From Coriobacteriia bacterium (GTDB lineage Bacteria; Actinomycetota; Coriobacteriia; Anaerosomatales; PALSA-660): a stretch of 50,987 nucleotides of DNA. This document shows positions 9,706-32,355 of this stretch, piece after piece. The notes beneath the pieces were generated by a model. It saw only the letters and a list, made by a program, of their open reading frames with translations. It searched no databases and was not told where the DNA came from. How positions within the stretch are numbered: the stretch's first letter is position 1; every line of letters starts with the position of its first letter. The position numbers and the translations under genes were made by a program. The stretch is taken from NCBI GenBank assembly GCA_023252055.1, contig JAHEXP010000005.1:1-50987 (forward strand). The letters are read 5' to 3'.

Positions 9706-10631
9706 ATGGACGCCCCCACGCTTCCCGTCGACGGACTCTGGCCCCGGGCCGGGCAGTGGATCGTGCCCGCTGACCCGACCGGCGCCCCCGCCTGCGACCT
9801 TGCGTTGCTCGGCGTCCCCGCGCATCTGACCTCGATCTCCGCTACCGGTGCGGACGCGACGCCGGGCGCCGTGCGCGACGCACTCATGCGCTACTCCACG
9901 TGGGCGGGTAGCCACGATGTGAGCGTCGCCACCCTGAGCGCCCTGGACTTCGGGGACGTGACGGACCCTGACGGCCCGGAGGGCGAGGCGCGGGTGGCCG
10001 CTTCGGTCGCGCGCACAGCGGAGCGGAACTCCTGATCGCACTCGGCGGTGACAACTCCGTCACTAACTCCGTGATGCGCGGCCGCCTCCCCGATCTCGGC
10101 GCCTGCGGACTCATCACCATCGACGCGCACCACGACCTGCGCGACGGTTGCAGCAACGGCTCCCCGGTGCGCCGCCTGATCGAGGCCGGCCTTCCCGGCG
10201 CAAACGTGGTCCAGATCGGCATCGCCGACTTCTCGAACTCGGCCGCCTACGCCGCCCGAGCGCGCGACCTCGGCATTCACGTTGTGCACCGCTCGGAACT
10301 GCGTCGACGCCACCTGGAGGACGTCGCGATCGCGGCTCTCGAAGTGGCCGGTGCGGATGGACGCCCGATCTTCGTCGACATCGACGTCGACGTCTGCGAC
10401 CGCGCGGAGGTACCGGGCTGTCCGGCATCCGCTCCAGGCGGCATCAGCGCCGACGACCTGCGACACCTCGCCTTCCTGCTGGCGCGCGACCCCCGCGTGA
10501 GTGCCATCGACATCACCGAGGTGGACGCCGCCGCCGACGCTCCGGACGGGCGCACCGTCCGGCTCGCAGCGCTCCTCGTGCTGGAGGCCGCCGCAGGCCT
10601 CGCCATCCGCATGGCGGTCCATCAGGCCTGA
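9706..10631 (+). pseudogene. hutG: Formimidoylglutamase / arginase-fold hydrolase split by a single-nucleotide frameshift near 10020-10032.
   Basis: ORF 9706..10035 encodes the N-terminal part (DLALLGVPAHLTSISATGADATPGAVRDAL). The other frame, open from 9972, reads ...ELLIALGGDNSVTNSVMRG and continues into ORF 10071..10631 (IDAHHDLRD, DIDVDVCD). The total span of 926 nt is not a multiple of 3. Confidence 0.75.
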
Positions 10632-22590: not shown

Positions 22591-23235
22591 TCAGTCTACG
22601 CCCTCGGTGAGCCTCGCCGCCAACCGCTTGCACCTGTCGAGCTCCTCCCGGAGTATCGGCGAGTCCACCACCTCGGTCTCCTCGAACTCCAAGGAGAAGT
22701 CGCTGCAGAACCGCTTCGCCTTCTCGCGGTACGGTTCCAACTCGTCGGCGGGCATCCCCGTGTTGAAGAAGAGTCCCCGTTTGTAGTGGGTGAAGAGGCG
22801 CTTCGCCATCTCCATCGGGTCGCGGCCGTACTTGGCGGCGCGGTCCAGCTTCAGTTCCTTGATCACCATGTGCGCGCCCACCTCGGCCCACCCGGGGCTC
22901 ATGAACCACGTGCCGACCTCGTGCTCGATCTCTTTCGAGTAGCGCTCCGGGGTGAGCATGAACATGATGCAGTCGTCGTAGGGCGGCAACACCGTCGGGA
23001 CCTTGACGAGCTTGTCGATGTCCTTGAGCGACTGGCAGTACCCGTATCCGAGGAATACGGCGTCCACCTTGCCTTCCAGCGCGTCGATCTGCTCGACGAG
23101 CGCGTCGCGCATCTTCTCGGGGTAGATGTGGAGCGCCGCCTCCAGATACACGACCTCGGTGATGTCCGGGTCGCCCTCGATGAGACGGGCGATCTCGTGC
23201 TTGATCATGTCGCACGCGATGACAGCTATGCGCAT
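22591..23235 (-). CDS. DUF1638 domain protein, a family usually linked to corrinoid methyltransferase genes.
   Basis: Trimmed to MRIAVIACDMIKHEI... (Met35). The pattern matches DUF1638 (VFLGYGYC, WFMSPGWA). Confidence 0.75.
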   Translation of the reverse strand: MRIAVIACDMIKHEIARLIEGDPDITEVVYLEAALHIYPEKMRDALVEQIDALEGKVDAVFLGYGYCQSLKDIDKLVKVPTVLPPYDDCIMFMLTPERYSKEIEHEVGTWFMSPGWAEVGAHMVIKELKLDRAAKYGRDPMEMAKRLFTHYKRGLFFNTGMPADELEPYREKAKRFCSDFSLEFEETEVVDSPILREELDRCKRLAARLTEGVD

Positions 23236-23257
23236 CGTGTAGGGCCTCTCGTGTAGG

Positions 23258-24883
23258 TCAGGCGCTGGCGCTCGGGAACCGCATCGCCGAGACGAAGGTG
23301 TTCTGGAAGTCGGGGTGGCCGGCGAGATCGATCGCACTCACGTGGCGGGCGATCGATTCCGCGCGCCGCCGCGCGGCCGTGTCGAGCAAGGCCATCAACG
23401 CGCCGGTCATGGCGGTGTTGCCCGCGAATGAGACGCGGTCGAGCCACATCGGGGGGATCATCCCCATGCGCACGAGCGCCGCGGCCTTCACGTGGTAGCC
23501 GAATCCCCCGGCGATGACGAGCTCCGCGACGCTCTCGGGCGCCACACCCGCCGAGTCCAGCAGCATCTCGATCCCGGATGCGATCGCGGCGTTCGCCAGC
23601 TGGACCTGCCGGACGTCCTTCTGCGTGAGCAGTACGCCCGGAGCGATCTCGAACACACGCGTGCCCTGGGTGTCGGAGATCCGGGCGGCAAGCGGATGCG
23701 GCCCTTCGGCGCGCAGGCGGCCGGTGGGGTCGAGGACGCCTGCGTCGAGAAGGACGGCGACGAGGTCGAGCAACCCGCTCCCGCACAGGCCCCGGGCCTC
23801 CCCGCCCCCGATCGTCTCGTAGTGCAGCTCCCCGGCCTCGTCCATCGAGACGCGCTCGATGGCGCCCGCTTCCGCCCGCATGCCGTAGGCGATGCTGGCG
23901 CCTTCGAGCGCGGGGCCGGCTGCGGTGGAAGCAGCGACAAGCCCTTCGGGCGTGCGCAGGACCATCTCCCCGTTGGTGCCGAGGTCTATGAGCAGCGCGG
24001 ATGTCTCCTGTTCGGCCAACCCCGTCGCGAGCAGCCCCGCGGTGATATCGGCGCCGATGAACGCGGAGATGCCGGGGAGCACGTAGACCGCCGCCTCCGG
24101 CATGCCGGTGAGACCCACTTCTGCGGCCGGACGCTCCACAGGATCGACGAACGCCGGCTCGTAGGGGGCGACGCCGAGCGGAGCCGGGTCGATCCCCAGG
24201 AGTAGGTGGATCATCGTCGTGTTTCCCGCGAGCGCGACCTCGCGCAACGCGCGCATCGGCTGTCCGACGGTGCGCAGAACGTCAGCGATGAGACGCTCGA
24301 TCTCGGACGCGATCGGCTCGCGCATGGACTCGGTGCCGTGGGCCGCCACGTGCGTTATACGAGACATCACGTCATGGCCGAACGGATGCTGCGGGTTGAG
24401 CGCTGACGCCGAGCCGAGGCGCTTGCCGGTCTCGAGGTCGAAGATCGCGGCCACCACCGTCGTCGTGCCGATGTCCACGACCGCCCCGAGCAGCGGCCTG
24501 CCCCCGGTGATCCCGCGTGCCGCCGGCGACTCCAGCGCGATCTCGCGCTGTTCGCCGGTCTCAAGGATACGGAGGCCCGCCGAGGCGCCGTGCGCGTTCG
24601 CAAGCGGCCGCACCGTGACGTCGCCGGTGACGCGGGCCCGGCACGACAACCGAACGTCGCCAGCCAAGCGCTCCTCGCCGAGCATGGTCCGCTCGTCGCC
24701 CGTCGGCGGCTCCAGAGCACCCACGGCCACGACCGCGCAGCGGCCGCACGTGCCGAGGCCGCCGCACGGGTGCTCGAGGGCGACCCCCGCGCCCGCGGCG
24801 ATCTCCTTGAGGGTCGCGCCGGGCTCGGCGGAGACATGTACTCCGTCGGGCTCGAACGTGACGGTGATCGGCTGGTTCGGCAT
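23258..24883 (-). CDS. RACo-type reductive activator of corrinoid proteins ([2Fe-2S] ferredoxin domain plus ASKHA/DUF4445 ATPase).
   Basis: 541 aa with N-terminal CGGLGTCGRC...C (CX5CX2C) and GAVVDIGTTTV / IDLGTNGE ASKHA phosphate motifs. Confidence 0.85.
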   Translation of the reverse strand: MPNQPITVTFEPDGVHVSAEPGATLKEIAAGAGVALEHPCGGLGTCGRCAVVAVGALEPPTGDERTMLGEERLAGDVRLSCRARVTGDVTVRPLANAHGASAGLRILETGEQREIALESPAARGITGGRPLLGAVVDIGTTTVVAAIFDLETGKRLGSASALNPQHPFGHDVMSRITHVAAHGTESMREPIASEIERLIADVLRTVGQPMRALREVALAGNTTMIHLLLGIDPAPLGVAPYEPAFVDPVERPAAEVGLTGMPEAAVYVLPGISAFIGADITAGLLATGLAEQETSALLIDLGTNGEMVLRTPEGLVAASTAAGPALEGASIAYGMRAEAGAIERVSMDEAGELHYETIGGGEARGLCGSGLLDLVAVLLDAGVLDPTGRLRAEGPHPLAARISDTQGTRVFEIAPGVLLTQKDVRQVQLANAAIASGIEMLLDSAGVAPESVAELVIAGGFGYHVKAAALVRMGMIPPMWLDRVSFAGNTAMTGALMALLDTAARRRAESIARHVSAIDLAGHPDFQNTFVSAMRFPSASA

Positions 24884-24923
24884 CCGGTATCTCCGTGTGT
24901 CGGGTGGGTTGTCGCAGGCCGGG

Positions 24924-26897
24924 CTAGAGCAGCGGTGGGCCCGAGGCTGTGGCCACGACGGTCAGCTCAACGAACACGTCGTCGTCGCGCCGCTCCTGCT
25001 CCGCCACGACCTCGTCGAAGGAGAGCGAGACCGAGACGACCGTGGCGCCGGCGGCCGCTGCGGCAGCGCTTGCCGCCTCGCTCGCCAGCTCCTCGGCGCG
25101 CTTTCGCGCCGTCGCGTAGTCATCGTAGCGCTCACGCGTCGCCGGGGTGATGACCGCGAACTGCTCGCCCGCCTCCATCCGGACCCGCGCTTCGGCGCGC
25201 TCGATCACGCGCCCGGCGAGCGCCCCGAATGCGTTGGCGACCTCCGCATGCTCCGGGACCACGAGGTCGGCGGCGAGCAGCTCGCCCGCCGACGGGAACC
25301 AGGCCGCGGCCGGAGCGCCGACGGCGACCAAGGGGACGCCGAGTGCGAGTCGGGAGCGCAGCGCGCCCTCACGGCCCTCCGCGAGCAGGTGGTCGAGAAG
25401 CGCCGCCTCCGCAGCCGACGGTTCCACCCCCCGGCGGTCGCCCGCCAAGGCACGCGCGGCCACCTCGAGGGCGAGGCGGGACCCAACCTCACGTCGAACT
25501 GACGCACCGAGCGCCTCGGCGTCGGTCCGGGCCGACGCTGCCATCAAAGCGAGTCCGGCGACCGACGCTCGTCTTGAACCCAGGTCCAATTCGCCGGCCG
25601 CGACCAACACATCGGTCGGCGTGGGAGCGATCTCGGCCACGTGGCCCGATCGGACGAGGGCATCGACGTCCACGAACGGCCCCGCAACGCCGGCGGCGCC
25701 GTCCACGTGCAACGCGCGCCCGTCGATCGCATCGAACAGGGCCGCCAGAGACGGCGAAAGATCACCTTCCGGCCTCCGCACCAGGGTCAGGTAGACCGGG
25801 GGCTCGGCCGCTTCGCCAGACGCAGCCGCGTCGACGGCCGACTCGAGTTCCGCCGCGAGATCGGGGAAGCGCTGGGCGGCGGTGCAGAGCGGTACCGCTC
25901 GGTCCGGGCCGAGCGAGACGAGCCCGCCGCGTTGGACCCGGATACGGCTGTCACCACCGAGGCCGACGGTGCGAACGTCGAGCGCTTGCACGCGCGTGCG
26001 CCATCCTCCCACGAGCGCTCCGTCGGAGCTGACCGCGGGCATGCCGCCGGAAACGAGTGCGATGTCGGTGGTCGTCCCACCCATGTCGGCCACGAGCGCC
26101 GAAGTGAGACCGGAGAGGCGACACGCCCCGACGACGCTCGCCGCCGGGCCTGACAGCACCGTGTCGACCGGACGCAGCCGCGCCATCCTCTCCGCCGTCA
26201 ACGACCCGTCGCCCTTCACGACCATGAGGGGCGCGGCGATGTGGAAGGCGTCGAGCGTGCTACGGACGGCGTCGAGAAGGTCCCGCACAAGGGGAAGCAG
26301 ACGGGCGTTGAGCGCGGCGGTCGTTGCCCGCTCCACCATGCCGATGCGTTGCGACAGCTCGTGGCCGCAGACCACCGGGGCGCCGCAGGCCGCCGCGACC
26401 AGATCGCGGAGCGCTGTCTCGTGTTCCGAGTTGGCGACACTGAAGTACGTGGAGACGGCAACCGCGTCGACGGTCCGTCCCATTCTCGCGACCGCCGCGG
26501 CCGCGGCCTCCAGATCGAGCGGAGTCCGAACGGAACCGTCGGGGCCGTGCGCTCCCGCGATCACCGCCACGTCCATCGCCGGCAGTCCCGCCGGAAGTGC
26601 GAACGTCTCCGGGTCGGGCACTGCCACGATGAGCCCCACCCGCGCCCCCTTCCCTTCCACGACCGCATTCGTCGCGAGCGTGGTCGAGAGCGAGACCAGC
26701 TCGACGCCTCGGAACAGGCCGGCGTCGATGGCAGCGAGCGCGTCGCGGATCCCGACGGCGAGGTCTTCCCGCGTCGTCGGCCGTTTCGCCTTCGCGAGTA
26801 TGGCTCCGCAAGTCAGATCCACCGCAACGGCGTCCGTGAAGGTCCCGCCGGTATCGATCCCGATGCCGATGCGGGTTTCGTTGATGCTTCGGGGCAC
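24924..26897 (-). CDS. Stand-alone hydantoinase/oxoprolinase-family (HyuA-like, ASKHA fold) protein.
   Basis: 657 aa with a GTG start 4 nt after the upstream stop. It has N-terminal IGIDTGGTFTDAV and central ADMGGTTTDIAL. No HyuB partner is present in the window. Confidence 0.8.
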   Translation of the reverse strand: MPRSINETRIGIGIDTGGTFTDAVAVDLTCGAILAKAKRPTTREDLAVGIRDALAAIDAGLFRGVELVSLSTTLATNAVVEGKGARVGLIVAVPDPETFALPAGLPAMDVAVIAGAHGPDGSVRTPLDLEAAAAAVARMGRTVDAVAVSTYFSVANSEHETALRDLVAAACGAPVVCGHELSQRIGMVERATTAALNARLLPLVRDLLDAVRSTLDAFHIAAPLMVVKGDGSLTAERMARLRPVDTVLSGPAASVVGACRLSGLTSALVADMGGTTTDIALVSGGMPAVSSDGALVGGWRTRVQALDVRTVGLGGDSRIRVQRGGLVSLGPDRAVPLCTAAQRFPDLAAELESAVDAAASGEAAEPPVYLTLVRRPEGDLSPSLAALFDAIDGRALHVDGAAGVAGPFVDVDALVRSGHVAEIAPTPTDVLVAAGELDLGSRRASVAGLALMAASARTDAEALGASVRREVGSRLALEVAARALAGDRRGVEPSAAEAALLDHLLAEGREGALRSRLALGVPLVAVGAPAAAWFPSAGELLAADLVVPEHAEVANAFGALAGRVIERAEARVRMEAGEQFAVITPATRERYDDYATARKRAEELASEAASAAAAAAGATVVSVSLSFDEVVAEQERRDDDVFVELTVVATASGPPLL

Positions 26898-26901
26898 AGC
26901 G

Positions 26902-27972
26902 CTAGGCCACGTTATGGCCGTCGTAGCGCCCGTACTTCCGGGCCGCCATGATCAGCGCATCGACATTCTCGAACGGCGTGTTGATCGGAACCTCGCAGCC
27001 CGAGCCCAGGATGAAGCCGTGCGGGGAATCGAGCGTCTTGACGCAGATCCCCTTGGCCTCCTCGTCGATCTGCTCAGCGGTGTTCTTGAGCATGTTCGCG
27101 GGAACGACGTTGCCCAGCAGGACGACTCTGTCTCCGACCGCCTCCTTGGCCTCGGCCAGGTCGACCGCGTCCAAGCTCCAGAGGTCGAAGTCCGTGGCCA
27201 GCATCGCCTTCCAGTTGGGCTTCGTCTTGCCGCAGATGTGCAATGCGGCGAGCGGCGCGCCCTTGGCGTGCAGGTGATCGGAGACGCGCTTGAGGTACGG
27301 CGCGACGAATTCGGTGAAGTGGGCAGGGCTCACCAGCGACGCGGAGCCGATCGGCTCGACGATGATCGGCAGGCCCCCGCGCTCCATGATCGCGTCGATG
27401 AAGCGAAGGTTCGCCTCGGTCGTCAACTCGAGCAGCTCGTGGACCTTGGCCTTGTCCTTGTAGAGCTCCCGTGTCATGAGGTCCAGCGGGCGCAGCGCCG
27501 CCGCAGTGGTGAAGGGGCCGCCCAGAACCACCGAGACGACGACCTCGCTCCCCACCTCCTTGACGCAGTGCTCGAGCGCCGTGAGGTAGACGGGCAGCCG
27601 GCCGTCCTTCTCGGGATCGGGCATGTTGATCCGCGAGAAGTCATAGCCGTCCTGGAGGAGAAACTCGTCGATCTGCGGTGCGTCCTCATCGAAGAACTTC
27701 ATCTTCGTGCCCATCGCCTCAGCGAGCGTGGAGGTCGTGGAGAAGATGGTGACGAGGTCGTTGCCGTAGCGGCGCCACGTGGCCACGTGGGCGCGGCCCA
27801 TGACGTCGCCGTCGCGGTTATAGACGCCGACGGGAACGCCCAGGACCCGAGCAGCATGGTTCAGGATCAGCGGGAAGCACGCGACGCGCTGCGGGTGCTC
27901 GCCCTTGAGGTAGGAAACGACGCGCTCCAGCGAGGACTGGGTGTCCGCAGGAACGTTGACGAGAGTCTCCAT
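26902..27972 (-). CDS. URO-D superfamily MtaA/CmuA-type zinc methyltransferase (copy B).
   Basis: 356 aa with GGAAAGG upstream. It carries LHICGKT (H-x-C) and GSGCEVP. Confidence 0.85.
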   Translation of the reverse strand: METLVNVPADTQSSLERVVSYLKGEHPQRVACFPLILNHAARVLGVPVGVYNRDGDVMGRAHVATWRRYGNDLVTIFSTTSTLAEAMGTKMKFFDEDAPQIDEFLLQDGYDFSRINMPDPEKDGRLPVYLTALEHCVKEVGSEVVVSVVLGGPFTTAAALRPLDLMTRELYKDKAKVHELLELTTEANLRFIDAIMERGGLPIIVEPIGSASLVSPAHFTEFVAPYLKRVSDHLHAKGAPLAALHICGKTKPNWKAMLATDFDLWSLDAVDLAEAKEAVGDRVVLLGNVVPANMLKNTAEQIDEEAKGICVKTLDSPHGFILGSGCEVPINTPFENVDALIMAARKYGRYDGHNVA

Positions 27973-28001
27973 CAGGTGTGACCTTTCCGTATGGGAGCGG
28001 G

Positions 28002-28661
28002 CTAGGCAGCGGCCGTCGCGAAGAGTTCGGTGGCCACGCGCACAGCGCTGGAGGCGTTGTCGGCATAGCCGTCTGCGCCGATCTTTTCCGCGAACGAACG
28101 CGAGATCGGGCCGCCGCCGATCATGACCTTGAACCTGTCGCGGATGCCCTCCTCATCTAGCATCTGGATGATCGCCGCCATGCCGTCCATCGTCGTGGTC
28201 ATGAGCGTCGAGAGGCAGATGAGCTGGGAGTTGGTCTCCTTCGCCTTCTCGATGAAGTCCGCGAGCGGGACGTCGCGCCCGAGGTCATGGACCTCGAAAC
28301 CGGCGACGTCGAGCATGATCTTCACGAGGTTCTTGCCGATGTCGTGGGTGTCACCCTTCACGACCCCGATGACGCATCCGATCTTCACACCCTGGTCCGC
28401 CACCTTGAGATGCGGCCTGAGGACGTCCAGCGCGGCATACATCGCGTCCGAACAGATGAGCAGCTCGGGGACGAAGTACTCCTCCTCGTCGTAGAGGCGC
28501 CCGGCCTCGTTCATCCCCACGACGAGGCCCTTGGTGATCGCTTCGTACGCGTCCATGCCGGCGTCCACCGCCTCGTGAGCGGCGGCTACTGCAAGGTCCT
28601 CGTCGAGATCGAGGACACCTCTGGCAAGGTCGGCGAGTATCTCTTCTGTGGAGCGCGGCAT
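28002..28661 (-). CDS. Corrinoid (B12-binding) methyl-carrier protein, MtaC/MtbC/MttC-like.
   Basis: The start was placed at the second ATG (AGAAAGG 9 nt upstream). The DxHxxG motif is GDTHDIGKN, followed by a GG.. Rossmann-like B12 domain. Confidence 0.9.
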   Translation of the reverse strand: MPRSTEEILADLARGVLDLDEDLAVAAAHEAVDAGMDAYEAITKGLVVGMNEAGRLYDEEEYFVPELLICSDAMYAALDVLRPHLKVADQGVKIGCVIGVVKGDTHDIGKNLVKIMLDVAGFEVHDLGRDVPLADFIEKAKETNSQLICLSTLMTTTMDGMAAIIQMLDEEGIRDRFKVMIGGGPISRSFAEKIGADGYADNASSAVRVATELFATAAA

Positions 28662-28716
28662 GTCCGGTGCCTTTCTCATTGGGGTCAGCCGGCCGCATCG
28701 CGTGCGGTCGGGACTT

Positions 28717-29787
28717 CTACCGTCCTACAGCGACCGAGCGGAGCTCTCGCTCCGCGCCTTCCCAGTCTTGGGCGGTCGCCACCACGTCGGCGACCGCGCG
28801 GATGTTGGCCAGCGGGGTGCGCGGACCGATGCCGCACGCGGGGGCGATGATGTCGACGCCCTCGAGCACGCGGTTGACCGCGACGCGGCGCAACGTTTCC
28901 GCCTTCCCATACTCCAGAAGGTACGTGCTCACGTTGCCCATCGACGCGTGGTCGGGCGCAAGTGCACGCAACGTTCGGAACGACACGTTGCTGTCGATGC
29001 TGATGACCGGCGCGCTCACTTCACCCAGCACGCCGCCGAGCGCCTTCACGTCCCCGCAGATGTGGACGATCGAGTGCACGTCGCGCGCGGCGAAGTGGTC
29101 GACGATCCGGTTGATGTAGGGCAGTGCGAATTCGCGGAACGCCTTCGCTCCGATGATCTCGCCGGTCCCACTCGGGTCCGCGATGCAGACCGTGTCGGCG
29201 CCGGCCCCGACGAGCGCATCACCGAACGCGATCGCGGCGTCTGCCGAGAGCTCGAGGAGCGCGTGGGCGGCGGACGGGTCGCGCCGCATGGCGCGGTAGA
29301 AGATGAGCGGATCGACGAGCGAGGTCGCGAGCGATATCGGACCTGTGACGCACGCGATCATCGGCAGATCGGGGCGCTCGGCCACGAGCAGCCGGGTCGC
29401 CTCGGCCGCGGTGGCGGCCCTGTCACCGCGGACGTCGAACGCGGCGAGGTCGTCGATGGCGGACAACCCCGCGATCGCATACTCGGTCACGCGCGGCTCG
29501 GTCTCGGCGGAGCCCAGGTCGACGGTCGCGCCCATGCCCTCTGCTTCGATCGTCATACAGAAGGGCGCGCCGAGGTTCTCCACGCCCGCGAGGTCGACCA
29601 TGCCCAGTACGAGGCGGGCCATGCTCTCGGGATCGCTGTGTGCGGCCGGCCATGAGTCTCCAACGGAGCTCATGACCTCGGTCACCGCCATGTTCATCAT
29701 GCCGCCGGGGCAGATGAACGGAGGCCGATCGACCGCATCGCGGCCGAGAACATCGCGCAGCCGCTGCTTGGGAGTCCGGATACCCAA
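28717..29787 (-). CDS. URO-D superfamily MtaA/CmuA-type zinc methyltransferase (copy A).
   Basis: The ORF 28717..29883 was trimmed to an in-frame TTG at 29787, because a promoter-like element lies inside the longer ORF. It has an N-terminal TPKQRLRDVLG..VDRPP typical of MtaA, VHICGD and IIAPACGIG. The start is uncertain. Confidence 0.75.
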   Translation of the reverse strand: MGIRTPKQRLRDVLGRDAVDRPPFICPGGMMNMAVTEVMSSVGDSWPAAHSDPESMARLVLGMVDLAGVENLGAPFCMTIEAEGMGATVDLGSAETEPRVTEYAIAGLSAIDDLAAFDVRGDRAATAAEATRLLVAERPDLPMIACVTGPISLATSLVDPLIFYRAMRRDPSAAHALLELSADAAIAFGDALVGAGADTVCIADPSGTGEIIGAKAFREFALPYINRIVDHFAARDVHSIVHICGDVKALGGVLGEVSAPVISIDSNVSFRTLRALAPDHASMGNVSTYLLEYGKAETLRRVAVNRVLEGVDIIAPACGIGPRTPLANIRAVADVVATAQDWEGAERELRSVAVGR

Positions 29788-29838
29788 CGTGATCCGTTCG
29801 GTCGCTTCAGCACGTCTTATGCAAACCAGAGTGCAAGC

Positions 29839-29867
29839 ATTATGCCATCGGGTCGCACTATTGGGAA
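29839..29867 (-). promoter_or_regulatory. Sigma70-like promoter of the corrinoid methyltransferase operon.
   Basis: The reverse strand reads TTCCCA (29867-29862), a 17-nt spacer, then TGGCATAAT (29847-29839, extended -10). Confidence 0.4.
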
Positions 29868-29919
29868 CCAAGGAGCCGGGCATGGTTCACGGGCGCCGGC
29901 CCCGTCCCACGCGGCGGTC

Positions 29920-30948: not shown

Positions 30949-32355
30949 ATGAGGGGGTCGCTGCCTCCGGGGACGGTGCATGCACCGGAGATCCGCGAAG
31001 GCTTGGACTGGGTCGGCACCGCGCCGGTCCGGCTGGCCGACCTGCGTGGGCGCATCGTCGTGCTCGACTTCTGGACCTACGGTTGAATCAACTGCATGCA
31101 CGTGCTCCCGCGTGTACGGGAGCTTGAGGAGAGGTTCGCCGACTCCGTCACCGTGATCGGCGTCCACGCCGGCAAGTTCGCGACCGAGCGCCACACCGAG
31201 CGCATCGCCGAGGCCTGCGACCGATTGGGCGTCGTGCACGCCGTGGTCAACGACCGGCAGTTCCGCGTCTGGCGAGACTACGCGGTCCAGGCCTGGCCGA
31301 CAGTCGCGGTGATCGACCCGGAGGGGTATGTCGCCGTCGTGGAACCTGGCGAGTTCGACGTCGAGGAGATGGCGGGCGAGATCGAGCGGATCGCTGCCCG
31401 GGCCCGGTCTCGCGGCACACTCATGCCCGGTCCGGACCCGGTGGCCTCGACCCTTGAGCGCCACACGGGGCCTTTGCGTTTCCCCACTCGCGCCGTGGTC
31501 GAAGGGCGGTCACTCTGGATCGCTGATACCGGACACGGCCGTGTCCTGGAGTGTGCGTGGGACGCTTCGCAGCATGCGGCCTCGATCGTGTCCGAGTACG
31601 CGGGTTTCGTCGAACCGCGTGGTCTCGCCGCGCTCGATGGCCGGATGTACGTGGCCGACCGGGGCGGACACCAGGTGTGGCGCCTGGAAGGCGGCGAGCG
31701 CGTGAACGTGGCGGGAACCGGGCGCATCGGCGACTACGCCATAGCGGCCGGCCCCGCCCTGAGCGCGGACCTGCGCTCGCCATGGGGCCTGTCTCCGCGC
31801 GGCGGCATGCTCGCGATCGCGATGGCGGGCACCCACCAGCTCTGGACGCTGGACACTGCGGACGGCGATCTCCGGCTTCTCGCGGGCGCCGGCGGCGAGA
31901 ACATCGCCGATGGGCCGCTGGAGCGCGCGGCGCTCGCGCAGCCTACCGGCCTGGCTTTGCTGCCGCTCGGCTCGCTGGCGCTGGCTGACTGCGAGACCTC
32001 CGCGGTCAGGATCGCAGACGACGCCGAAGTGATGACGCTCGTCGGAACAGGCCTCTTCGAGTTCGGGGACCGCGACGGCGTCGGGGACGAGGTCCTCCTC
32101 CAGCACTGCGAGGACGTGGCCTCCCATGGCGCCGCTCTGGCGGTCGCCGACACCTACAACGACCGCATCAAGCGCGTCGACCCGCTCACCCGCGGGTGCG
32201 GTCCGTGGCCCGGGGAGGCCGGCGAGTCGGGCGCGGTCCGCGAGCCGGGCGGCGTCTGGAGCGACGGCTCGACACTGCTCGTGGCCGACACCGGCCACCA
32301 CCGCATCGTGACCGTCGCGGGCGACGGCGCGCTCACCGAGGTACGCTTGTCCTGA
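30949..32355 (+). CDS. Thioredoxin-like domain plus NHL-repeat beta-propeller protein (NHLRC2-like). An in-frame TGA at 31084-31086 takes the place of the first Cys of CxxC, making it a candidate selenoprotein.
   Basis: ATG 30949 opens 45 codons (…LRGRIVVLDFWTYG), then TGA, then INCMHVLP... in the same frame as track ORF 31096..32355. The family consensus is FWTYCCINC.H. The NHL part carries IADTGHGRV, HQLWTL, LFEFGDRDG, LLQH and VADTYNDRIKRVD. Confidence 0.65.
31104..31123 (+). other. Candidate bacterial SECIS-like hairpin downstream of the in-frame UGA.
   Basis: A 7-bp stem GCUCCCG/CGGGAGC with loop CGUGUA (contains GU). The stem starts 17 nt after the UGA. Confidence 0.3.

What the first reader, a model, noticed from the sequence alone, without database searches (positions are those of the whole stretch)
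30949..32355. In-frame TGA replaces the first Cys of the CxxC redox motif in a thioredoxin-NHL protein: candidate selenoprotein (U-I-N-C)
Seen in sequence:
- ATG 30949 opens a frame encoding MRGSLPPGTVHAPEIREGLDWVGTAPVRLADLRGRIVVLDFWTYG.
- TGA follows at 31084-31086, and the same frame continues INCMHVLPRVRELEERF... into the 419-aa track ORF.
- The 45 upstream codons look like the genuine first beta-strand region of the thioredoxin fold, with no other disruption.
- A hairpin (GCUCCCG-CGUGUA-CGGGAGC) lies 17 nt downstream of the UGA, with GU in its loop.

Established knowledge:
- The NHLRC2-type family carries FWTY-C-C-I-N-C at this position.
- Bacterial selenoproteins typically replace the N-terminal Cys of a CxxC with Sec, and place a SECIS hairpin directly after the UGA.

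Inference: this is a UxxC selenoprotein rather than an N-terminally truncated gene. TGA is a normal stop elsewhere in the window (for example hutI), so genome-wide recoding is unlikely.
Basis: partly seen in the sequence, partly recalled or inferred. Interest (0 to 1): 0.75.

Follow-up and report, generated by a model that had tools for sequence, protein, structure and literature searches.

The report
Selenocysteine form of an NHLRC2/SOQ1-type redox protein
The in-frame TGA is almost certainly a real selenocysteine codon in a bacterial relative of human NHLRC2 and plant SOQ1, and the same codon recurs in 73 of 80 related genomes from three phyla, where gene callers record the gene as a truncated protein.

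Summary
ATG 30949 opens 45 codons, TGA sits at 31084-31086, and the frame runs on to 32355. The TGA aligns with the first Cys of the C-I-N-C redox motif of full-length homologues. Among the 80 most similar loci from named genomes, 73 carry TGA at this codon (Coriobacteriia/Actinomycetota, Gemmatimonadota, several Chloroflexota classes) and 7 carry TGC/TGT. The upstream 45 codons evolve as translated sequence.

A hairpin meeting the published bacterial SECIS criteria follows the UGA. It covaries across lineages and is absent from Cys forms. On the window alone it is not statistically exceptional.

The protein is a thioredoxin-like domain plus NHL beta-propeller. A model of the closest Cys orthologue superposes on SOQ1 and NHLRC2 at TM about 0.9. 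The Sec column corresponds to SOQ1 C431 and NHLRC2 C90.

I could not test for selA/B/C/D in the same genome, because none lie in the window or in any fetched locus. A 2026 inventory of 119 prokaryotic selenoprotein families lists no NHL/NHLRC2/SOQ1-type entry, and no curated NCBIfam model covers the architecture.

Verdict: a genuine selenoprotein gene, a new member of the known UxxC thioredoxin-fold selenoprotein kind, of moderate interest.

The parts
30949..32355 (+). Complete selenoprotein CDS: 468 residues with Sec at position 46, plus the TGA stop. Thioredoxin-like domain followed by an NHL beta-propeller.
   Evidence: Pfam Thioredoxin_8/AhpC-TSA/Redoxin over residues 24-138, spanning the TGA, plus NHL repeats; PDB sequence matches to SOQ1 at 5.5e-70 and NHLRC2 at 6.2e-58.
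30949..31083 (+). N-terminal 45 codons upstream of the UGA, which gene callers omit. They encode the first strands of the thioredoxin fold, up to beta-strand VVLDFW.
   Evidence: GC1/2/3 is 0.71/0.53/0.87, the same as the rest of the gene. Synonymous/non-synonymous codon changes among close relatives are 216/198 in frame against 24/381 and 20/377 in the shifted frames. The equivalent residues in the model of orthologue P0042 have pLDDT 95-98.
31084..31086 (+). Sec-UGA codon: the first position of the U-I-N-C redox motif, equivalent to SOQ1 C431 and NHLRC2 C90.
   Evidence: Aligns with Cys in all full-length homologues. TGA at the same codon in 73/80 genome loci, and TGC/TGT in 7.
31093..31095 (+). 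TGC codon for the second (resolving) Cys of the U-x-x-C motif.
   Evidence: Columns 10 and 11 (T and G of this codon) are invariant in all 72 aligned Sec-form sequences.
31104..31123 (+). Bacterial SECIS-type hairpin: 7-bp stem 31104-31110 / 31117-31123 and 6-nt apical loop CGUGUA 31111-31116. The MFE structure adds weak lower pairs over about 31090-31136.
   Evidence: Loop 6 nt, stem 7 bp, G at loop position 2 followed by U, 24 nt from the UGA, -12.6 kcal/mol for the hairpin alone and -16.9 for the 54-nt segment; this meets all four criteria in PMC13188914 Fig. 2. Covariation is shown.
31018..31362 (+). Thioredoxin-like (Redoxin/AhpC-TSA/Thioredoxin_8) domain, residues about 24-138.
   Evidence: The invariant W116-P117 (cis-Pro loop position) is seen.
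31459..32352 (+). NHL-repeat beta-propeller, residues about 171-468. No further C-terminal domain.
   Evidence: Pfam NHL. PDB alignment of query 171-455 to the NHLRC2 propeller 6g7w. The model of orthologue P0042 shows propeller-type beta-strand repeats through to its C-terminus.
32353..32355 (+). Ordinary TGA stop of the same gene.
   Evidence: Homologues end at the equivalent position.

Best explanation
Positions 30949-32355 are one gene for a 468-residue cytoplasmic selenoprotein of the NHLRC2/SOQ1 type: an N-terminal thioredoxin-like domain packed against an NHL beta-propeller. The UGA at 31084 is read as selenocysteine. The hairpin 18-37 nt downstream acts as a bacterial SECIS that recruits SelB carrying Sec-tRNA(Sec) to the ribosome (inferred, by analogy with characterised bacterial selenoprotein mRNAs). 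Sec46 sits at the N-cap of helix alpha-1, in the cleft facing the propeller, and is the attacking nucleophile of a U-I-N-C motif. It would form a selenenylsulfide with Cys49 during a thiol-disulfide or sulfoxide-type reduction of a substrate held by the propeller (inferred from SOQ1/NHLRC2 structure and SOQ1 biochemistry). Shown here: gene continuity, Sec/Cys column identity, cross-phylum conservation of the TGA, a lineage-tracking hairpin, and fold. Inferred: actual Se insertion, and the substrate and reaction.
For: (1) The TGA column is the first Cys of C-I-N-C in all full-length homologues.
(2) 73/80 related genome loci have TGA there and 7 have TGY. Taxa with TGA include Coriobacteriia/Actinomycetota, Gemmatimonadota, Dehalococcoidia, Chloroflexia, Thermomicrobia (including the isolate Thermomicrobium sp. 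CFH 73360), Anaerolineae and Ardenticatenia.
(3) The closest ~60 database homologues are called as ~419-aa proteins starting at the Met straight after the motif.
(4) The upstream 45 codons have coding GC3 and a synonymous-change excess only in this frame.
(5) For the hairpin, 86.5% of cells pair against 39-59% when slid, the covariation score is 0.247 against at most 0.156, and 0/500 shuffles reach it. Pair 24-37 shows CG 27, UA 19, GC 9, UG 7, linking the Leu wobble base to the first base of the E/K/Q/R codon.
(6) 60/74 Sec forms and 1/10 Cys forms meet strict bSECIS criteria. 69/72 Sec forms have a G in the first two loop nucleotides. Mean z against synonymous recodings is -1.12 for Sec forms and +0.39 for Cys forms. 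The three closest Cys relatives keep only 2-3 of 7 stem pairs.
(7) TGA is a normal stop in 13/35 window genes.
(8) The AF2 model of the closest Cys orthologue has pLDDT 95.4, with Cys46 at the N-cap of helix 47-62. TM is 0.90 to SOQ1 and 0.91 to NHLRC2.
(9) SOQ1 C431/C434 are redox-active and essential.
(10) Sec decoding and tRNA-Sec are documented in Actinobacteria and Chloroflexi.
Against: No selA, selB, selD or tRNA-Sec was found in the window or in any of the 80 loci, so Sec-decoding capacity of this organism is unproven. The window's hairpin alone is not significant. RNAalifold predicted no consensus structure on the pooled alignment, probably because the hairpin register shifts by 1-3 nt between lineages. 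14/74 Sec forms fail the strict criteria, through bulged stems or A/U-only loop starts. Rfam gave no hit. No experimental evidence of Se incorporation exists for any member.
Confidence: 0.86

Rival explanations
1. The TGA is a lesion, either a nonsense mutation in a decaying gene or an assembly or sequencing error for TGC/TGT.
For: The contig does contain at least one apparent lesion: the hutG-like gene is split by a frameshift at about 10,000-10,035. Read pileups were not available.
Against: The same TGA sits at the same codon in 73 independently assembled genomes from three phyla, with no other disruption and purifying selection on both sides. A co-varying hairpin is present only in TGA forms.
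Confidence: 0.02
2. The real product is the 419-residue protein that gene callers report, starting at ATG 31096. The upstream 45 codons are a separate small ORF or untranslated leader.
For: Gene callers and NCBI annotations report ~419-446-aa products named 'alkyl hydroperoxide reductase' or 'hypothetical protein'. An ATG lies 9 nt after the TGA.
Against: That Met is a conserved residue of the active-site helix in SOQ1 (C-I-N-C-M-H-V-L-P) and in several Cys-form homologues. Many TGA-form lineages have L, I, V or Q there and so offer no start. No Shine-Dalgarno sequence precedes 31096. A protein starting there would lack beta-1 and the whole redox motif of the Trx fold. The upstream codons show frame-specific purifying selection.
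Confidence: 0.03
3. The UGA plus hairpin is recoded, but to cysteine (a selC*-type tRNA-Cys(UCA) with a SelB paralogue) or by near-cognate read-through, not to selenocysteine.
For: A tRNA-Sec-mimicking tRNA-Cys with a UCA anticodon and a dedicated SelB* exists in some bacteria and inserts Cys at UGA in E. coli tests (PMC5389517). Nothing in my data distinguishes Sec from Cys insertion chemically.
Against: That system is reported only in Firmicutes, Thermodesulfobacteria, Nitrospirae and Proteobacteria, and always alongside a complete Sec system. Maintaining a UGA plus hairpin merely to insert Cys, when TGC does the same job (as in the 7 nested Cys forms), is unparsimonious across three phyla.
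Confidence: 0.04
4. The family is a genuine selenoprotein, but this particular organism has lost the Sec machinery, so its copy is a non-functional relic.
For: No sel genes lie on this 51-kb contig. Sec/Cys switching and selenoprotein loss are common in bacteria (PMC1794560).
Against: The window copy is intact, has full coding signatures, and keeps a perfect 7-bp hairpin. It is 70-75% identical to L001-L004, which keep the same features. A relic would be expected to accumulate further lesions or convert to Cys.
Confidence: 0.05

Closest known systems
Arabidopsis SOQ1 lumenal Trx-like/NHL module (PDB 7djj/7djk)
   Same: Best sequence match in the PDB (E 5.5e-70 over residues 12-415). TM 0.90 over both domains for the orthologue model. 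Same DFWTY-x-C-I-N-C-M-H-V-L-P active-site helix. The window's Sec aligns with C431 of the redox-active, functionally essential C431-C434 pair.
   Different: SOQ1 has Cys, not Sec. It is membrane-anchored and lumenal, with an N-terminal HAD domain, a TM helix and a C-terminal DsbD-n-like domain (CTD) that receives electrons from the Trx-like domain and carries the reported Msr activity. The window protein has neither extension and no signal peptide.
Human NHLRC2 (PDB 6gc1), the FINCA-disease protein
   Same: E 6.2e-58. TM 0.91, rmsd 2.3 A. [quoted passage not shown] Prokaryotic orthologues are recognised, and no conserved bacterial gene neighbours were found (PMC6107167), which matches.
   Different: NHLRC2 has Cys at the equivalent position (C90) and an extra, non-conserved C-terminal beta-stranded domain. 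It was inactive in the insulin-reduction assay, and its biochemical function is undetermined.
Bacterial thioredoxin-fold UxxC selenoproteins (Sec-thioredoxin, Prx-like thiol:disulfide oxidoreductase, thiol-disulfide isomerase-like, 'Redoxin family protein PF08534') listed in PMC13188914 Table 1
   Same: Sec replaces the N-terminal Cys of a CxxC at the N-cap of alpha-1 of a Trx fold, with a bSECIS hairpin immediately downstream in the coding region and Cys-containing homologues in other organisms. The window protein passes the Pfam Redoxin cutoff (33.8 against 26.6 bits).
   Different: None of the 119 listed families is described with an NHL propeller or as NHLRC2/SOQ1-like. No NCBIfam model reaches its cutoff (best is ResA, 47 against 170 bits). 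Whether the generic 'Redoxin family protein' entry (HEU0032618.1) is in fact this family could not be checked.
Mycobacterium tuberculosis DipZ C-terminal Trx-like domain (PDB 2hyx/5cyy)
   Same: The Trx-like domain is related (E 6.5e-22 over residues 12-163), with an S-C-I-N-C motif.
   Different: DipZ is a membrane DsbD-type electron transporter. It has no NHL propeller and no Sec.

Membership tests
Bacterial selenoprotein gene (Sec-UGA decoded via SelB/SECIS) | In-frame UGA aligned with Cys in non-selenoprotein homologues (Sec/Cys pair) | tested here: met
   all full-length homologues have Cys in the UGA column; 7 genome loci have TGC/TGT.
Bacterial selenoprotein gene (Sec-UGA decoded via SelB/SECIS) | UGA-containing orthologues in other organisms, with conserved sequence on both sides | tested here: met
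   73/80 loci across three phyla; frame-specific purifying selection upstream.
Bacterial selenoprotein gene (Sec-UGA decoded via SelB/SECIS) | bSECIS hairpin: 3-9 nt apical loop, 4-16 bp stem, G in the first two loop positions, 16-37 nt from the UGA, MFE <= -7.5 kcal/mol (PMC13188914 Fig. 2) | tested here: met
   Window: loop CGUGUA (6 nt), 7 bp, G at loop position 2, spacing 24 nt, -12.6 kcal/mol. 60/74 Sec forms and 1/10 Cys forms meet the criteria. Covariation. Caveat: not significant on the window alone, and RNAalifold predicted no pooled consensus.
Bacterial selenoprotein gene (Sec-UGA decoded via SelB/SECIS) | selA, selB, selC (tRNA-Sec) and selD in the same genome | not testable with these tools
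   None in the 51-kb window or in the 80 loci. The literature documents the trait in Actinobacteria and Chloroflexi; nothing was found for Gemmatimonadota.
Bacterial selenoprotein gene (Sec-UGA decoded via SelB/SECIS) | Selenium demonstrably incorporated (75Se labelling or mass spectrometry) | not testable with these tools
   Experimental. No report was found for any member.
NHLRC2/SOQ1-type Trx-like/NHL protein | Trx-like domain with the C(C/G)-[IV]-N-C motif at the N-terminus of alpha-1, and a cis-Pro loop | tested here: met
   The motif G-U-I-N-C aligns with C-C-I-N-C of SOQ1. Cys46 is at the N-cap of helix 47-62 in the orthologue model. W116-P117 are invariant.
NHLRC2/SOQ1-type Trx-like/NHL protein | NHL beta-propeller packed against the Trx-like domain to form a cleft that holds the motif | tested here: met
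   Pfam NHL. TM 0.90-0.91 over both domains to 7djk and 6gc1. Tested on the 60%-identical orthologue P0042, not on the window protein itself.
NHLRC2/SOQ1-type Trx-like/NHL protein | Additional C-terminal beta-stranded domain (CTD) | tested here: not met
   The protein ends after the propeller at 468 aa. PMC6107167 describes this domain as non-conserved and absent from most bacterial homologues, so it does not define the core family. In SOQ1, however, it carries the reported Msr activity.
'Redoxin family protein' UxxC selenoprotein of PMC13188914 Table 1 (PF08534) | PF08534 domain with a UxxC motif | tested here: inconclusive
   The PF08534 match is above cutoff and a UxxC motif is present. The representative HEU0032618.1 could not be retrieved, and the cited source papers mention neither 'redoxin' nor NHL.

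The most novel reading that the evidence does not exclude
This is an undescribed and old selenoprotein family: the Sec-containing form of the NHLRC2/SOQ1 orthologue group. Sec would be the predominant, possibly ancestral, state across a subfamily spanning Actinomycetota, Gemmatimonadota and Chloroflexota, and public databases record it systematically as truncated 'alkyl hydroperoxide reductase' or 'hypothetical' proteins. If so, nature has marked the residue equivalent to NHLRC2 C90 / SOQ1 C431 as the catalytic redox nucleophile. The compact two-domain bacterial enzyme would then be a tractable model for finding the still unknown reaction of a human disease protein.
Probability: 0.55. Interest if true: 0.6.

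Novelty: new member of a known kind. Interest (0 to 1): 0.52.

Why it matters
First, annotation. Gene callers truncate the gene at the Sec codon, dropping the first 49 residues and the active site. Most of the closest database homologues are recorded that way, as are about 10% of the top 50%-identity representatives with this architecture.

Second, function. Sec/Cys pairs are a recognised marker of catalytic redox cysteines. Here the pair falls on the residue equivalent to NHLRC2 C90 and SOQ1 C431. This is independent evolutionary support that the family is a redox enzyme acting through that residue. NHLRC2 is essential in mammals and mutated in FINCA disease, yet it failed the classical insulin-reduction assay and has no assigned reaction (PMC6107167).

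Third, selenium biology. The family adds a widely distributed selenoprotein in soil, groundwater and thermophilic phyla (Gemmatimonadota, Chloroflexota, Coriobacteriia-like Actinomycetota) that do not appear in the selenoproteome papers I checked.

Tried and rejected
- Rfam gathering scan of the window: no hit.
- ARAGORN on the window and 60 loci: no tRNA-Sec.
- E. coli SelA/SelB/SelD tblastn against the window and 80 loci: no hit.
- Pfam annotation of about 30 window genes: no sel genes.
- RNAalifold on the pooled 72-sequence alignment: no pairs predicted. I attribute this to 1-3 nt register shifts of the hairpin in Thermomicrobia and Chloroflexia, seen, but I did not re-run it on subgroups.
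- Synonymous-recoding and dinucleotide-shuffle tests on the window's hairpin alone: not significant. The SECIS argument rests on comparison only.
- Neighbourhood clustering: no neighbour shared by more than 13 of 79 loci, and the two largest 'neighbour' clusters were antisense shadow ORFs.
I used orthologue P0042 instead.
- Exact look-up of U-containing full-length sequences, to see whether NCBI already annotates them as selenoproteins: the tool rejects 'U'.
- Haft & Tolstoy 2025 (PMC12013261): not held.
- My recollection that PMC5424206 describes UGA-to-Cys recoding was wrong. The relevant paper is PMC5389517.
- The in-frame junctions 34781/34782 and 32355/32356, where adjacent segments are separated by TGA, are ordinary neighbouring genes and not further Sec candidates.
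- The truncated arginase-family ORF is a frameshift, not a recoding site.
Full report
OBSERVATION. ATG 30949 opens 45 codons ending ...LDFWTYG. TGA lies at 31084-31086, and the same frame continues INCMHVLPRVRELEERF... for 422 more codons to a TGA stop at 32353-32355. Pfam places one thioredoxin-like domain (Thioredoxin_8, AhpC-TSA, Redoxin) across residues 24-138, spanning the TGA, followed by NHL repeats. The window is 68.6% G+C. Its genes end in TGA (13), TAG (17) and TAA (5), hutI among the TGA group, so TGA is not reassigned genome-wide.

THE TGA COLUMN. The closest ~60 homologues in the protein database (55-74% identity) are almost all ~419 aa and cover only ~90% of the query. More distant ones (47-60%) are 470-490 aa and cover 99%. 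In the alignment, every full-length protein reads LDFWT-x-G-C-I-N-C, with Cys in the TGA column. Every short one begins at the Met immediately after the motif. That Met is also present in SOQ1 (C-C-I-N-C-M-H-V-L-P) and in several Cys-form homologues, so it is part of the active-site helix and not a true start.

DNA-LEVEL TEST. A scan of one genome per species returned the 80 most similar loci. I extracted the codon in the motif column. The window plus 71 loci had TGA, 7 had TGC/TGT, and the two loci my pattern missed also had TGA. The final tally is 73/80.

The TGA forms come from Coriobacteriia and other Actinomycetota MAGs (up to 75% identity to the window), Gemmatimonadota, Dehalococcoidia, Chloroflexia, Thermomicrobia (including the isolate Thermomicrobium sp. 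CFH 73360), Anaerolineae and Ardenticatenia. In all of them about 35 upstream residues are conserved in frame.

In the window, the upstream 45 codons have GC1/2/3 of 0.71/0.53/0.87, against 0.75/0.52/0.87 downstream. Among close relatives, synonymous and non-synonymous codon changes number 216 and 198 in frame, but 24/381 and 20/377 in the shifted frames. A lesion, an assembly error, or a gene starting at the internal Met cannot produce this pattern.

THE HAIRPIN. The window's element is GCUCCCG-CGUGUA-CGGGAGC at 31104-31123. The published bacterial SECIS consensus asks for four things: a 3-9 nt loop on a 4-16 bp stem, a G in the first two loop positions (usually followed by G or U), 16-37 nt from the UGA, and MFE <= -7.5 kcal/mol (PMC13188914). 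The window has a 6-nt loop with G at position 2 followed by U, a 7-bp stem, 24-nt spacing and -12.6 kcal/mol.

Taken alone this is weak evidence in GC-rich DNA:
- Strand folding gives z = -1.06.
- 2.1% of arbitrary positions and 24 of 1173 TGA triplets in the window do as well.
- The native sequence is no more stable than synonymous recodings of the same peptide (p = 0.33).

The comparative evidence is strong:
- On the ungapped 72-sequence alignment, the stem (columns 22-28 with 33-39) pairs in 86.5% of cells, against 39-59% when the 3' partners are slid. The covariation score is 0.247, against at most 0.156 for any slide, and 0/500 shuffles reach it.
- Pair 24-37 joins the Leu wobble base to the first base of the E/K/Q/R codon. 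It shows C-G 27, U-A 19, G-C 9 and U-G 7, a coupling that protein coding does not predict.
- 60/74 Sec forms and 1/10 Cys forms pass strict criteria.
- Mean z against synonymous recodings is -1.12 for Sec forms and +0.39 for Cys forms.
- The three closest Cys-form relatives, fetched separately, keep only 2-3 of the 7 stem pairs.

Part of the constraint is written at the amino-acid level. Sec forms read LP[QR][LV]R[EK]L, and Cys forms differ at exactly these residues. RNAalifold found no pooled consensus. The hairpin is shifted by 1-3 nt in Thermomicrobia and Chloroflexia, which probably explains this, but I did not re-test subgroups.

WHAT THE PROTEIN IS. The best solved relatives are Arabidopsis SOQ1 (E 5.5e-70) and human NHLRC2 (E 6.2e-58), then the Trx-like domain of M. 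tuberculosis DipZ. The model has pLDDT 95.4 and pTM 0.93. Strand 36-42 (VVILDFW) leads into Cys46, the Sec column, at the N-cap of helix 47-62, and residues 11-45 score 95-98. The model superposes on SOQ1 7djk (TM 0.90) and NHLRC2 6gc1 (TM 0.91, rmsd 2.3 A) over both domains.

[quoted passage not shown] The protein is inactive in the insulin assay and has no assigned reaction (PMC6107167). In SOQ1 the redox pair is C431-C434. Single C431S or C434S mutations abolish function (bioRxiv 10.1101/2021.03.16.435614). The lumenal domains show methionine-sulfoxide reductase activity, with the Trx-like domain donating electrons to a C-terminal domain (bioRxiv 10.1101/2024.11.01.621559).

The window's Sec therefore corresponds to SOQ1 C431 and NHLRC2 C90. 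The window protein lacks the C-terminal domain and has no signal peptide. It is best read as a cytoplasmic two-domain enzyme in which Sec46 attacks the substrate and Cys49 resolves. The substrate and the exact reaction are inference.

CONTEXT. No sel gene or tRNA-Sec lies in the window or within 10 kb of the gene in any locus. The window equals the longest contig recorded for its protein, so same-genome Sec machinery cannot be tested here. Published surveys document Sec decoding and tRNA-Sec in Actinobacteria and Chloroflexi (PMC1794560 and PMC5389517). I found nothing for Gemmatimonadota.

The gene has no broadly conserved neighbour, in agreement with PMC6107167. In part of the Actinomycetota clade, in both Sec and Cys forms, a PF00174 molybdoenzyme gene with a lipoprotein signal follows it and in three cases overlaps it by 4 nt. 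That partner is absent from the window.

A rough NJ tree tracks taxonomy and nests Cys forms at five or six separate places inside Sec-dominated clades. The tree has no support values, and the sampling is biased towards the query.

In the wider family Cys predominates. Among the best 150 representatives at 50% identity, roughly 11 of about 105 proteins with this architecture start at the Sec column.

RIVALS. Lesion or error, and a true start at the internal Met, are effectively excluded by the evidence above. UGA-to-Cys recoding by a selC*-type tRNA-Cys(UCA) with SelB* exists, but it is reported only in Firmicutes, Thermodesulfobacteria, Nitrospirae and Proteobacteria, and always alongside a full Sec system. 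A relic copy in a genome that has lost Sec decoding cannot be excluded, but it is disfavoured by the intact gene and perfect hairpin.

NOVELTY. The 2026 inventory of 119 prokaryotic selenoprotein families has no NHL, NHLRC2 or SOQ1 entry. No NCBIfam model reaches its cutoff. NCBI-sourced members are deposited truncated. No paper in the library links NHLRC2, SOQ1 or NHL repeats with selenocysteine, and neither do the source papers I could open. I therefore rate it a new member of a known kind, with about 55% probability that it is truly undescribed.

Noticed in passing
L083:4419-5129, L084:4419-5129, L085:1870-2577; also L005-L008 about 1.4-1.5 kb downstream of the UGA: A 235-236-aa PF00174 Oxidored_molyb (MsrP/YedY/sulfite-oxidase-type) gene with a lipoprotein-like signal peptide directly follows the Trx-NHL gene in part of the Actinomycetota clade, in both Sec and Cys forms. 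In the three Cys-form loci it overlaps the gene by 4 nt. It is absent from the window and from the Gemmatimonadota and Chloroflexota loci. This is suggestive, given the Msr activity reported for SOQ1.
   Followed up: partly
window 9706-10631 (+): The hutG-like arginase-family gene beside hutH/hutU/hutI is split by a frameshift. The N-terminal part is in ORF 9706-10035, and the C-terminal part (Pfam Arginase profile positions 82-277) is in another frame, about 10017-10631. It is either a pseudogene or an assembly indel.
   Followed up: partly
window 22591-29886 (-): A corrinoid-dependent methyltransferase cluster: two URO-D/MtaA-like genes, a B12-binding corrinoid protein, a RACo-type reductive activator with a 2Fe-2S domain, a hydantoinase-like gene and DUF1638. 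This is an anaerobe-type methyl-transfer or O-demethylation system, lying immediately upstream of the selenoprotein region.
   Followed up: no
L018, L022, L028, L031, L041, L043, L046, L055-L057, L060, L066-L068, L070, L075, L079, L080 (motif column): Dehalococcoidia, Thermomicrobia and Ardenticatenia Sec forms read Y-C-U-x-N-C, with an extra Cys directly before the Sec as in the CCINC of NHLRC2/SOQ1. Actinomycetota, Gemmatimonadota and Chloroflexia forms read Y-G-U-x-N-C.
   Followed up: no
A2 columns 22-40; for example L031, L043, L057, L068 (Thermomicrobia) and L024, L032, L047 (Chloroflexia); L067, L070: The SECIS-like hairpin shifts register by 1-3 nt and changes loop size (GUU, UAGUUCA, GGUCC) between lineages while staying 24-27 nt from the UGA. 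[quoted passage not shown]
   Followed up: partly
one search hit list (P0032, P0089, P0090, P0100, P0115, P0120): The truncated gene products are named inconsistently in source databases: 'alkyl hydroperoxide reductase', 'sugar lactone lactonase YvrE', 'DNA-binding beta-propeller fold protein YncE', 'NHL repeat', 'hypothetical protein'. Loss of the Sec-containing N-terminus is driving the mis-annotation.
   Followed up: no
one search hits P0121-P0143 and others: The profile search is topped by giant proteins of 2,000-7,500 residues with 10-40 matched stretches, all within the NHL-propeller part of the profile. These are multi-propeller proteins unrelated to the Trx-NHL architecture.
   Followed up: no
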